Shown: one piece after another, positions 34,901-37,900 of the stretch
Position numbering within the stretch: the first letter of the stretch is position 1
Layout: every line of letters starts with the position of its first letter
NCBI RefSeq assembly: GCF_025028335.1
Contig: NZ_JAFEUW010000001.1
Location: 1,240,001 to 1,304,000, forward strand
Source of the DNA: Brachybacterium sillae
GTDB taxonomy: Bacteria > Actinomycetota > Actinomycetes > Actinomycetales > Dermabacteraceae
Length of the DNA stretch: 64,000 nt
Reading direction: 5' to 3'
Program-made: the position numbers

Positions 34901-37900
34901 GCGGTCGGCGTGCTCCGCGGCGGAGGCGGAGGTGGGGGGAACGGGGGTGTTCATGCGTTCTCCTCCGTCCACCGGTTCTCCTGCCGCAGTGATTCCCAGA
35001 TGTGGGTGCGCAACCGGGTGAACTCCGGGTCCTGTTCGATCCGTCGCGTGCGGGGCCGCGGGAACGGGACGGTGATGTCCTCGGTGATGCGTCCGGGCCG
35101 CGGCGACAGCACGATGATCCGGTCGCCGAGGATGATCGCCTCGTCGATGTCGTGGGTGACCATCAGCACCGTCGTACGCTCCGCCTCCCACAGGGCCAGC
35201 AGTTCCTCCTGCATGAGCATGCGGGTCTGGGCGTCGAGCGCGCCGAGGGGTTCGTCCATCATCAGCACCGGGCTGCCGGTGGCGAAGGCGCGGGCGATGG
35301 CGACACGCTGGCGCATGCCGCCCGACAGCTGGTGCGGGTAGGCGCGGTCGAAGTCCTGCAGCCGCACGCGGGTGATCCATTCGCGGGCCACGGCCTCCCG
35401 CTCGCCGCGCGCCATCCCGGCCATGCGCAGACCGAAGGCGACGTTCTCGAGCACCGTCATCCACGGGAAGACCCCATGCTCCTGGAACACGAAGGCGGCG
35501 CGCACGGTGTGTCCGCCGCCGTCGAGGGCCACGGTGCCGCTGGTCGCCTCCTCGAGGCCACCCATGATCCGCAGCAGGGTGGATTTGCCGCCGCCCGACG
35601 GGCCGACGACACACGTGAAGGACCCCGGGGCGAGGTCGAGGGAGACGTCCTCGAGTGCCCACACGGGCTGGTCGGCGGTGGAGAAGAAGACCTTGGAGAC
35701 CCGGTCGGCGCGGACTGCGGGGGCGGTCGCCGACGCAGGCGCGGTCGCGGCGCCCGCAGGGGCGACGTCCGAGGGGCGGTCGGTCACGGGCGGCACCTCC
35801 TGGCGCGGGCGGACACCGCCCGGCGGGCGGCAGGATGGGCCCACGATACGGGGATTCTCACGGCTCGGGACGGCCGACCGGCATGCGGTCACGCAGAGCG
35901 CCCGGGGCAGCGACGGGCGGTGTCCCGATGGCTGTCACCGGGGCGAGACCTGCTCCCTGGTCACGCGAGGTTCTGTGGCAAGACCCGGGACCGTCGGCGT
36001 CGCGCCCGGAAGAACTCCCGCAGCAGGTCCCCGCACTCCTGCTCCCGCACCCCCGCGGTGAGCTGCACCCGGTGGTTCAGCCGCGGTTCGCGGACCAGGT
36101 CGTACAGGGACCCGGCGGCCCCGGCCTTGGGGTCGTGGGCTCCGAACACCACCCGGTCCACCCGCGACAGGACGATCGCCCCGGCGCACATGGTGCACGG
36201 TTCGAGCGTCACGACCAGTGTGCATCCGCTGAGGTTCCAGCGGCCCCGTGCCCGGGCGGCCTCGCGCAGCGCCAGGATCTCGGCGTGGGCGGTGGGGTCC
36301 TCGTCGGCCTCCCTCCGATTCGCGGCGCGGGCGATCACAGCGCCGCTCTCGTCGAGCACCACAGCCCCGATGGGCACATCCGCCGGTTCCCTCTCCCCCG
36401 CGGTCCGGGCGTCCTCCAGGGCGAGCACCATCGCGGCGTCGTCGGCGGCGCCCGGTTCACTGGGCGCGCTGACGGTCGGCGCGCCGGGTGCGGCCGGGGG
36501 CGGTGGGGTCGTCATGGTGACGAGGGTAGGCGCTGGTCCGGCACCGCGACGGCGGCAGCCCGCACGCGGCCCGGCGGGGTCGCTGGTCCCCGGTGGGCCC
36601 ACGCTCTCTCCGGTAGATTCGCCGCATGCGCGTCCTCGAGATCGACCACCCGCTCGTCGCCCACAAGCTCACCGTGTTGCGCGACCGCACCACCCACTCC
36701 AGCGTCTTCCGACAGCTGGCCGACGAGCTGGTCACCCTCCTCGCGTATGAGGCCACCCGCCATGTGCTGGTGGGCCCCGCCGAGGTGGAGACCCCGGTGA
36801 CGTCGATGACCGGCACCAAGCTCACGGCGCCCAAGCCGATGGTGGTGCCGATCCTCCGCGCCGGCCTGGGCATGCTCCACGGCCTCACCACCCTCCTGCC
36901 GACCGCCGAGGTCGGGTTCCTCGGGATGGTCCGCAACGAGGAGACCCTCGAGGTCACCACCTATGCCAACCGTCTGCCCGAGGATCTCCAGGGGCGGCAG
37001 TGCTTCGTGCTCGATCCGATGCTCGCCACCGGCAACACCCTGATCGCAGCGGTGGAGTACCTGCATGAACGCGGCGCCCGCGACATCACCTGCGTCACCC
37101 TGCTCTCCGCACCGGAGGGCATCGCCAAGCTCGAGGCCGCCATCGACCCGGAGATCGACCTGACCGTGGTCACCGCCGCGATCGACGAGAGGCTCAACGA
37201 GAAGGGGTACATCGTCCCGGGTCTCGGCGACGCCGGTGACCGCCTGTTCGGTGTCGTCGACTGACGCCCGGCGGGGCGGCTGACCACGGCGCCCGCCCGG
37301 GGCGAGAGGCAGGGTGACCGGCAGGACACCCGAAGCGGTGACCGCCGCGGCATCGCCCCCGCACGACGCCCACATCACGACGCCCACATCATGGACAGGG
37401 ACTTGCGTCGCGCCCGCCCTCCGGTGCATCCTCACTGCCATGTCCATCACGCGTGCGCTCACGCCGGCCACCTCCTCGGTGGTCCGCTTCGCTGCGCCCG
37501 CGATGCCGGCCATGATGATGCGCGCGTCGATGATGATGCGCATGATGCAGCGTCAGCCGAGCCTCTGAGCTTGCACCACACCTCCGGGGTCGGCTGACAG
37601 GAGCCGGCCGAGGGGCGCGGGCTCCAGGTGCCACCGGGAGCACGGCCCGACGATGGAGACCGCACCGCAGGTCCATCAGGGATCCCGGGTCCACCACTCG
37701 CATCTGCGCCGCGACACCGACTCTCGCGCAGCGCCAGAGCCCAGGAGCTCCTGTCATGACCGCCGTTCTCACCCGCCCTGCCGACGCCCCCGCCACCCCG
37801 CACCTGCAGAGCGTCCGCCGCCCGACCTCTGCCCCCGCCGTCCGCACCTCTGACGACCCGACCCGACGCCTGCGCCTGTCCCCCGCTGCGGAGTCGACGC

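What a model noticed while it worked through the whole genome (the two positions that open the first line are those of the whole stretch)
37440..37600. Methionine-rich leader peptide upstream of a winged-helix regulator
An uncalled, apparently leaderless 42-codon ORF ending in a run of methionine codons (9 Met in 15 residues) precedes the winged-helix gene g01145; its last codons and stop form the 5' arm of a strong hairpin. It is a candidate methionine- or sulfur-sensing attenuator controlling a regulator gene.
Evidence so far: Same ORF with 5-9 Met and the hairpin in two other Brachybacterium and in G061; Met/Cys-rich versions (MMM...MCCRMCR) before the homologue in three genomes of another family, each with a -10-like element 6-7 nt before the ATG. 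It was the only Met-rich upstream ORF in a genome-wide scan.
(Added by a program. Inside this text positions count along the whole contig: contig position 1,240,001 is position 1 of the stretch shown here. "Call 12" and the like, gene names such as g00115 and contig names such as C1 are that model's own, and its searches are not shown. The text may have been shortened before it was handed on; [...] marks where a part breaks off. The agent that wrote the report below was given it as the finding of a first reader that could run no searches.)

Follow-up and report, generated by a model that had tools for sequence, protein, structure and literature searches.

The report
Methionine-sensing leader controlling a sulfur regulator
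A tiny reading frame packed with methionine codons sits in front of an uncharacterised DNA-binding regulator in four related bacterial families; it likely gauges methionine supply by ribosome stalling and would switch on a regulator predicted to control methionine and sulfur genes.

Summary
Confirmed. The 42-codon ORF (37440-37568) has the densest Met run in the genome: 9 of 15 codons, next best 6 among 68,875 frames. It is conserved before the same orphan winged-helix gene in 14 of 14 named Brachybacterium-type loci, with a -35/-10 pair 5-7 nt before the start and three different stop codons. Met/Cys versions lead 62 of 74 Microbacteriaceae/Micrococcaceae loci and 8 of 8 in a fourth family. 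Folding predicts that a ribosome stalled in the Met run frees the regulator's start site in 23 of 26 Dermabacteraceae copies; this is not clear in this window's copy or in the other families. New here is a likely regulon. A 10-bp-period direct repeat marks sulfite-reductase promoters in 11 of 15 genomes with the regulator and 1 of 30 without. In this genome it precedes metF-metE and two Cys/Met enzyme genes. Genomes without the regulator mostly carry Cys leaders or SAM-IV riboswitches at those operons. No Rfam or NCBIfam match; not found in ten literature searches. It likely works like mycobacterial polycysteine attenuators but senses Met and acts through a transcription factor. Translation and binding are untested. 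This scan noted a Cys/Met version earlier in another genome (e1-9902056).

The parts
37381..37396 (+). Degenerate copy of a 16-bp imperfect palindrome (consensus GTYYCAC-N3-GYGRAC) just upstream of the -35; resembles the NdgR site; inferred operator
   Evidence: Aligned promoters; PWM scan of own genome; NdgR sites in PMC4340878 Table 1
37403..37432 (+). Predicted promoter: -35 TTGCGT, 18 nt, -10 CATCCT, 7 nt before the ATG (leaderless)
   Evidence: same spacing in 25 of 26 family copies and in other families; not called by the strict scan
37440..37568 (+). Leader ORF, 42 aa, 10 Met
37466..37484 (+). Hairpin H0 inside the leader ORF, with compensatory changes
   Evidence: 4 of 7 pairs change on both sides, 100% of cells paired; z -3.1
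37503..37547 (+). Met tract (9 of 15 codons); predicted stall site
37552..37598 (+). Hairpin H1: 5' arm is codons RQPSL and the stop; 3' side holds the anti-SD CCTCCGGGG (37581-37589)
   Evidence: own anti-SD/SD pairs beat shuffled pairs, p about 0.01
37600..37625 (+). Hairpin H2, conserved, with compensatory changes
37627..37688 (+). Near-invariant core ending in a CCGGGA/TCCCGG pairing; one copy per genome, found only in Dermabacteraceae
   Evidence: 11 of 301 genomes, all in the own family
37743..37758 (+). Shine-Dalgarno AGGAG and start codon of the regulator; predicted target of occlusion
37756..38574 (+). Orphan OmpR/PhoB-type winged-helix regulator with no receiver domain; DNA-binding domain closest to GlnR's
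   Evidence: PF00486 only; Foldseek best 8hml, 44% identity, for a relative; tree
36626..37264 (+). upp, the usual upstream neighbour; not part of the switch
   Evidence: replaced by other genes in several loci that keep the leader

Best explanation
The ORF is a conserved Met-rich leader at the likely leaderless 5' end of the regulator's mRNA, and it likely acts as a translational attenuator: when methionine is scarce a ribosome would stall in the Met run and free the regulator's start site, and the regulator is predicted to then switch on methionine and sulfur-assimilation genes through a 10-bp-period direct repeat. Shown: the ORF, its conservation and link to the regulator, the promoter-like spacing, the conserved helices, and the repeat's presence at sulfur promoters. 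Inferred for Dermabacteraceae: two locks. Free or quickly translated RNA lets the AUG run pair with the CAUC-AUG around the regulator's start codon. A ribosome at the stop melts H1 and releases an anti-SD that pairs with the SD. Only a ribosome parked mid-tract leaves H1 closed and both sites open. Inferred for evolution: the sensor sits on one regulator, whereas related families put a Cys leader or SAM-IV riboswitch on each operon. My odds by step: translated sensing leader 0.85; start-site occlusion in this family 0.65; sulfur/Met regulon 0.7.
For: Leader before the regulator in 14 of 14 named loci, 7 of 7 same-family genomes, 62 of 74 Microbacteriaceae/Micrococcaceae loci and 8 of 8 in family f11. 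Three stop codons and ATG/GTG starts are used. One Brachybacterium leader carries the CCRM motif of the other families (L080). Opening energy of the regulator's start region, mean of 26: free 10.6, mid-tract stall 6.6, late-tract stall 6.2, stop 13.0 kcal/mol; late-tract stall easier than free in 23 of 26. Control stalls at codons 6 and 11 give 11.9 and 10.7. CATC precedes the ATG in 19 of 26 versus 3 of 174 SD-led starts in this genome. A motif learned on metY and cysK promoters of the other three families scores at least 10 bits in 11 of 15 held-out sir promoters with the regulator, 1 of 30 without, 1 of 44 upp-upstream controls and 0 of 30 metY promoters without. With half-sites only, 12 of 15 fit a 10-bp period and 0 of 15 an 11-bp period. 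In this genome hits ranked 2, 5 and 7 of 46 lie 42-81 nt before metF-metE and two Cys/Met PLP enzyme genes. A full GlnR was not found in this genome, 6 of 7 family genomes and 6 of 7 f11 genomes, and is present in 5 of 5 genomes lacking the regulator.
Against: This window's copy does not follow the family switch cleanly. Its Met tract pairs with the start region by only 0.3 nt. Its footprint-only opening energies are flat (9.9 free, 9.0-11.2 stalled, 9.3 stop); a benefit appears only if everything upstream is also masked (5.5-7.6 vs 9.9). With that full mask the mid-tract stall is harder to open than the stop state in 16 of 26. In Microbacteriaceae (44) and Micrococcaceae (11) a stall does not ease opening. 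H1 is nearly invariant, so it has little covariation support. The repeat is weak in Dermabacteraceae: 2 of 14 metY/cysK promoters, 2 of 4 sir promoters, and none at this genome's sir, metN or ssu genes. Some training sites lie in an upstream gene's coding end. The four families are probably one clade (recalled), so the contrast may be a single event. Orthology of the Brachybacterium protein to the others rests on synteny and a DNA-binding-domain group of modest support (85/76); the N-terminal domains barely align (probability 3%). Rothia-like genomes keep the repeat but lack the leader.
Confidence: 0.62

Rival explanations
1. The leader senses Met/Cys by stalling, but the output is transcriptional: Rho, or the tandem H1-H2 hairpins, end the transcript unless a ribosome is parked on the tract.
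For: Spacers after the stop are C-rich (C/G 0.42/0.25 in Microbacteriaceae, 0.35/0.24 in Micrococcaceae, 0.40/0.33 here). A stall does not open the start site in those two families. In Arthrobacter the CRM codons pair about 40 nt before the start rather than on it. PMC1262725 suggested Rho for Cys leaders.
Against: No U tract. In Dermabacteraceae the anti-SD tracks the SD and CATC is enriched before the ATG. The tested mycobacterial case is translational (10.1101/834739).
Confidence: 0.17
2. The leader is a real Met sensor, but the promoter repeats belong to another OmpR-type factor (MtrA or an unknown one), so the regulator's targets are still unknown.
For: The half-sites resemble MtrA's GtnAc repeats (PMC13189361 passage). 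The regulator-positive families are close kin. Many Dermabacteraceae sulfur promoters lack the repeat.
Against: The period is 10 bp, whereas the quoted MtrA site has 11. The repeat is nearly absent where the regulator is not found. It recurs at the regulator's own promoter in 20 of 59 loci. GlnR is excluded in several genomes. MtrA presence in the negative genomes was not tested.
Confidence: 0.11
3. The near-invariant H1-H2-core RNA is a ligand- or protein-binding element, riboswitch-like, and the Met codons mainly serve base pairing.
For: RQPSL codons are identical in 26 of 26 and CGA is used in 59 of 59 CRM motifs although CGG was allowed. Unpaired core bases are invariant.
Against: No Rfam match. 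The core occurs once per genome and only in one family. Start, frame and stop are kept through indels and three stop codons. Other families keep the Met/Cys leader without this RNA.
Confidence: 0.05
4. The product is a small Met/Cys-rich peptide that acts in trans, for example binding Cu(I) or the regulator.
For: Met and Cys are soft-metal ligands (general knowledge). The C-terminal residues are conserved within families.
Against: Length (23-46 aa), N-terminus and Met count (1-12) vary widely. Conservation is at the nucleotide level. The ORF is always first on the regulator's predicted transcript.
Confidence: 0.04

Closest known systems
Polycysteine leaderless sORF attenuators of mycobacteria (Ms5788A, Ms4527A; 'ribulon'; bioRxiv 10.1101/834739, passages read)
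   Same: Leaderless short ORF, run of sulfur-amino-acid codons near the 3' end, tract predicted to pair with the downstream start region, induction on shortage.
   Different: Met rather than Cys codons (no Cys in 17 of 26 family copies). The controlled gene is a transcription factor, not an enzyme operon; that paper presents ribulons as an alternative to such factors. No match to NF042933/34/36.
whiB7/wblC uORF attenuator (PMC10274678, passages read)
   Same: An actinobacterial transcription factor controlled by stalling in an upstream ORF enriched for one amino acid.
   Different: whiB7 uses an intrinsic terminator/antiterminator, an Ala-rich uORF and a WhiB-family protein. Here there is no U tract, a clustered Met/Cys run and an OmpR-type winged helix.
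Cys leader peptides of cys operons in Actinobacteria (PMC1262725, first third read; NCBIfam NF042934)
   Same: Sulfur-codon leader without an intrinsic terminator.
   Different: These sit directly on cys operons, as seen here before sir in families lacking the regulator, not on a regulator.
GlnR and MtrA (OmpR/PhoB family)
   Same: Winged-helix domain is closest to GlnR's (44% identity; neighbouring group in the tree); similar half-sites.
   Different: No receiver domain; a short unassigned N-terminal domain; predicted 10-bp repeat period; predicted sulfur rather than nitrogen targets.
NdgR regulon of Streptomyces coelicolor (PMC4340878, section 5 and passages read)
   Same: Controls Met, Cys and branched-chain genes; a similar palindrome precedes this leader's promoter.
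   Different: NdgR is an IclR-type protein and would act upstream of this system; it is not the gene here.

Membership tests
Mycobacterial polycysteine leaderless attenuators | Short ORF at the 5' end of a leaderless mRNA | tested here: inconclusive
   Promoter-like pair 5-7 nt before the start is conserved; no transcript data
Mycobacterial polycysteine leaderless attenuators | Consecutive Cys codons near the stop | tested here: not met
   No Cys in the window's leader or in 17 of 26 family copies; relatives in other families do carry 1-4 Cys
Mycobacterial polycysteine leaderless attenuators | Match to NCBIfam leader models NF042933, NF042934, NF042936 | tested here: not met
   0 hits for the window leader, 3 in-frame relatives and 9 more; positive control: 8 of 11 sir leaders hit NF042934
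Mycobacterial polycysteine leaderless attenuators | Sensing tract pairs with the downstream SD/start region | tested here: inconclusive
   Predicted in 21 of 26 Dermabacteraceae copies but not the window's, 10 of 44 and 1 of 11 in other families
Mycobacterial polycysteine leaderless attenuators | Downstream gene is a sulfur-metabolism enzyme or transporter operon | tested here: not met
   Downstream gene is a PF00486 regulator
Mycobacterial polycysteine leaderless attenuators | Expression responds to the amino acid and needs leader translation | not testable with these tools
   Needs reporters
Classic transcription attenuators (trp, whiB7 type) | Intrinsic terminator with U tract after the leader | tested here: not met
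   0 terminator-like sites in 37265-37800
Rfam riboswitches (SAM-IV and others) | Covariance-model match | tested here: not met
   Only two chance-level matches, E above 3; SAM-IV was readily found at metY loci
OmpR/PhoB response regulators (GlnR, MtrA) | C-terminal Trans_reg_C winged helix | tested here: met
   PF00486 E 6.5e-22
OmpR/PhoB response regulators (GlnR, MtrA) | N-terminal receiver domain | tested here: not met
   No Pfam receiver match; NCBIfam matches cover mainly the C-terminal half and stay far below cut-offs
OmpR/PhoB response regulators (GlnR, MtrA) | N-terminal domain has a known fold | tested here: inconclusive
   Model of a relative's domain (pLDDT 85) gave best Z 3.1 and no Foldseek match

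The most novel reading that the evidence does not exclude
A methionine-dedicated ribosome sensor sets the level of an undescribed master regulator of Met and sulfur genes. In one branch of Micrococcales this single sensor-plus-regulator replaced the per-operon Cys leaders and SAM-IV riboswitches that sister families use, and Dermabacteraceae retuned it from Cys/Met to almost pure Met.
Probability: 0.45. Interest if true: 0.82.

Novelty: new variant of a known kind. Interest (0 to 1): 0.7.

Why it matters
I found no tested Met-codon attenuator in the library searched. Met is also needed to start translation, so whether a ribosome can sense it through elongator codons is an open point that this locus makes testable. 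It would assign a function and a binding site to a large unnamed regulator family (4,420 proteins at E 1e-30 among those scored) in Arthrobacter, Microbacterium, Brachybacterium and relatives. It would also give a natural case of a ribulon being exchanged for a transcription-factor regulon.

Tried and rejected
Rfam gave no match for the leader region. NCBIfam and Pfam gave none for the leader; one of four leader references was out of frame and is not counted. No RNA holder was listed for the window. Neighbourhood clustering of 92 loci showed upp but no family-wide sulfur gene; the clusters were not annotated by a library scan. The N-terminal domain gave no usable Atlas hit and no clear fold match. 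An automatic ranking of intergenic segments failed because my crude gene caller masked the sites, so its p-value is discarded. Own-versus-cross pairing of Met tract and start region showed no specificity (means -16.9 vs -17.7). The by-eye repeat count (13 of 15 vs 1 of 30) was circular and was replaced by the held-out test. A link to upp was rejected because the leader follows the regulator, not upp. The antisense ORF 36512-37543 was rejected as a shadow of upp. Ten literature searches (listings only) showed no paper on this leader or regulator. PMC4833913, PMC2965389 and PMC11550727 (passages) had nothing on it. The library lacks most subscription papers; I recall, unchecked, a sulfur-starvation transcriptome of Brevibacterium aurantiacum, attenuator surveys from the Lyubetsky group and RegPrecise regulons that could hold the motif or leader. 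Supplements of 10.1101/834739 are closed and may list Met-rich sORFs.

Full report
Observation. The ORF at 37440-37568 (+) is as described: 42 codons, 9 Met in codons 22-36. It lies between upp (36626-37264) and a gene at 37756-38574 whose only Pfam domain is Trans_reg_C. A six-frame scan of the genome found no other frame with more than 6 Met in 15 residues among 68,875. The last codons and stop pair with 37581-37598 (-25.6 kcal/mol, z -2.5). There is no U-tailed terminator and no Rfam match.

Conservation in the own family. Of 17 loci, 14 encode close relatives (13 named Brachybacterium, one unclassified MAG); all 14 carry a Met-rich ORF ending RQPSL. So do 7 of 7 same-family genomes. The upstream gene varies (upp, urease genes, others), so the leader travels with the regulator. 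I examined 29 loci, dropped 2 duplicates and 1 without an automatic start call, and kept 26. These are 35-46 codons long with 6-12 Met, no Cys in 17, and stops TGA 20, TAG 5, TAA 1. A TTG-led -35 and a -10 lie 6-7 nt before the start in 25 of 26. Exchange among stop codons and frame-preserving indels argue for a translated ORF. Translation itself was not observed.

Wider distribution. A profile of the non-Dermabacteraceae regulators gave 80 loci. Four lacked upstream DNA and two were ordinary response regulators. Of the other 74, 62 have a leader ending in a C-R-M-like motif behind a -35/-10 pair, one is doubtful, and 11 have none: Kocuria 3, Nesterenkonia 3, Rothia 2, Citricoccus 1 and two MAGs. 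One further leader is frameshifted (L027). Family f11, which I take from recall to be Brevibacterium-like, has Met/Cys leaders in 8 of 8. The N-terminal domain profile hits 8 of 8 genomes in each of f7, f10 and f11 and gives only weak hits (E 1e-6 or worse) in 6 other genomes of 151. It does not detect the Dermabacteraceae protein. That protein joins the family by synteny with upp, a DNA-binding-domain group of modest support (85/76), a shared upstream palindrome and a CCRM-bearing leader in L080.

RNA switch. The family alignment gives helices H0 (inside the ORF, 4 of 7 pairs with double changes), H1 (stop hairpin, nearly invariant), H2 and a core pairing; 98.4% of cells pair and 0 of 500 shuffles reach the covariation score, which the tool warns is not a probability. 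Two alternative pairings bear on the regulator's start. First, the AUG run is complementary to CAUC-AUG: CATC precedes the ATG in 19 of 26 copies against 3 of 174 SD-led starts in this genome, and tract-start pairing is predicted in 21 of 26. Second, the 3' side of H1 holds an anti-SD that can pair either with the leader's Leu-stop sequence or with the near-identical SD region; own pairs beat shuffled pairs among 18 distinct combinations (p about 0.01, related sequences). With a ribosome footprint masked, the mean cost of opening the start region is 10.6 kcal/mol free, 6.6 and 6.2 with mid- and late-tract stalls, and 13.0 at the stop; early stalls give 11.9 and 10.7. Against this: the window's own copy is flat under that mask and responds only if all upstream RNA is masked; under the full mask the stop state is no longer the most closed on average; and no such effect appears in 44 Microbacteriaceae or 11 Micrococcaceae leaders, whose C-rich spacers leave Rho-type control open.

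Likely targets. I fetched sir, cysK and metY promoters from 30 regulator-positive genomes and sir and metY promoters from genomes of nine other families. An unsupervised motif search on 46 metY and cysK promoters outside Dermabacteraceae returned a direct repeat, roughly YRTKAC-N5-RTKTC. It scored at least 10 bits in 11 of 15 held-out sir promoters with the regulator, 1 of 30 without, 1 of 44 upp-upstream controls and 0 of 30 negative metY promoters. The period is 10 bp: 12 of 15 at 10, 0 of 15 at 11; the MtrA site quoted in PMC13189361 has an 11-bp period. In this genome, also held out, hits ranked 2, 5 and 7 of 46 lie just upstream of metF-metE and two Cys/Met PLP enzyme genes; ranks 1, 3, 4 and 6 fall inside ORFs and rank 8 precedes what looks by eye like a peptide transporter. 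A full-length GlnR was not found with this query in this genome, 6 of 7 family genomes and 6 of 7 f11 genomes, several of which have strong repeats, and it is present in 5 of 5 negative genomes. Limits: only 2 of 14 Dermabacteraceae metY/cysK promoters and 2 of 4 sir promoters score; this genome's sir, metN and ssu promoters do not; and the positive families are kin, so the test overstates.

A division of labour. By one rule, a short Cys-bearing ORF precedes sir in 23 of 30 negative genomes and 2 of 14 positive ones; I judge those two, and one of the 23, spurious. Of 11 such leaders scanned, 8 hit NF042934, 5 at or above its cut-off, while 9 regulator leaders hit nothing. SAM-IV lies at 13 of 20 negative metY loci; among 20 positive loci it occurs only in the 5 Micrococcaceae-type ones, upstream of metY in 4. 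The simplest reading is that positive families moved the sensor from the operons to one regulator. That is inference, probably from a single evolutionary event.

Upstream input. A 16-bp palindrome lies before the leader's promoter in Dermabacteraceae and Micrococcaceae. It resembles the NdgR 15-mer of PMC4340878. Its best match in this genome precedes the metNIQ-like operon at window 32837, and another lies between ilvB and sir. The window's own copy is degenerate. This is a lead, not a test.

Comparison. The element likely works like the mycobacterial polycysteine leaderless attenuators (10.1101/834739) and shares its architecture with whiB7 (PMC10274678). It fails membership in both: no Cys run, no NCBIfam match, no enzyme operon, no U-tailed terminator. 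Ten searches of the held library showed no description of it; subscription papers were not covered.

Verdict. A real, conserved feature and a new variant of a known kind: a Met-weighted leader on an undescribed OmpR-type regulator with a predicted Met/sulfur regulon. Confidence in the full mechanism 0.62; interest 0.7.

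Noticed in passing
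window 30038-35892 (-): A sulfonate/taurine-like ABC transporter followed by a metNIQ-like transporter lies 1.5-7 kb upstream of the leader, on the other strand (all below curated cut-offs). Parts recur next to the regulator in some Brachybacterium loci.
   Followed up: partly
window 32837-32852: Best genome-wide match (19.9 bits) to the NdgR-like 16-bp palindrome, just before the metN-like gene.
   Followed up: partly
window 37362-37389: A 14-base tandem duplication overlaps the palindrome upstream of the -35.
   Followed up: no
L338-L345, L347 (family f15), upstream of sir: Cys-rich leaders (for example ending CLCCCR) that match no NCBIfam leader model (3 scanned); similar leaders ending RMCR/RMCS appear before metY in f15.
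   Followed up: partly
L283, L285, L289, L297, L298, upstream of cysK (family f11): A conserved 5' sequence block around GATCAGCAGCTGAAGCC before cysK, a possible cis-regulatory RNA.
   Followed up: no
L228:4662-4754 and L230:4577-4690: Promoter-led short ORFs without Met/Cys runs at the leader's position in a Kocuria and a Citricoccus locus.
   Followed up: no
L027:963-1056: Leader with the conserved tail shifted out of frame with its GTG start; decay or a sequencing error.
   Followed up: no
L218-L246 promoters (Micrococcaceae): A CRP-like TGTGA-N6-TCACA site (label recalled), the NdgR-like palindrome and paired TTGTTAC boxes recur in fixed order before the regulator's promoter, also where the leader is lost.
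   Followed up: partly
G000:C1 about 338560-338620 (-): A short ORF with Leu codons sits before the leuA-like gene, as expected for the known LEU element.
   Followed up: no
G034, G055, G128, G145: These f11 genomes lack a full GlnR match but have a GlnR-like DNA-binding domain (59-62% identity) in a longer ORF.
   Followed up: no
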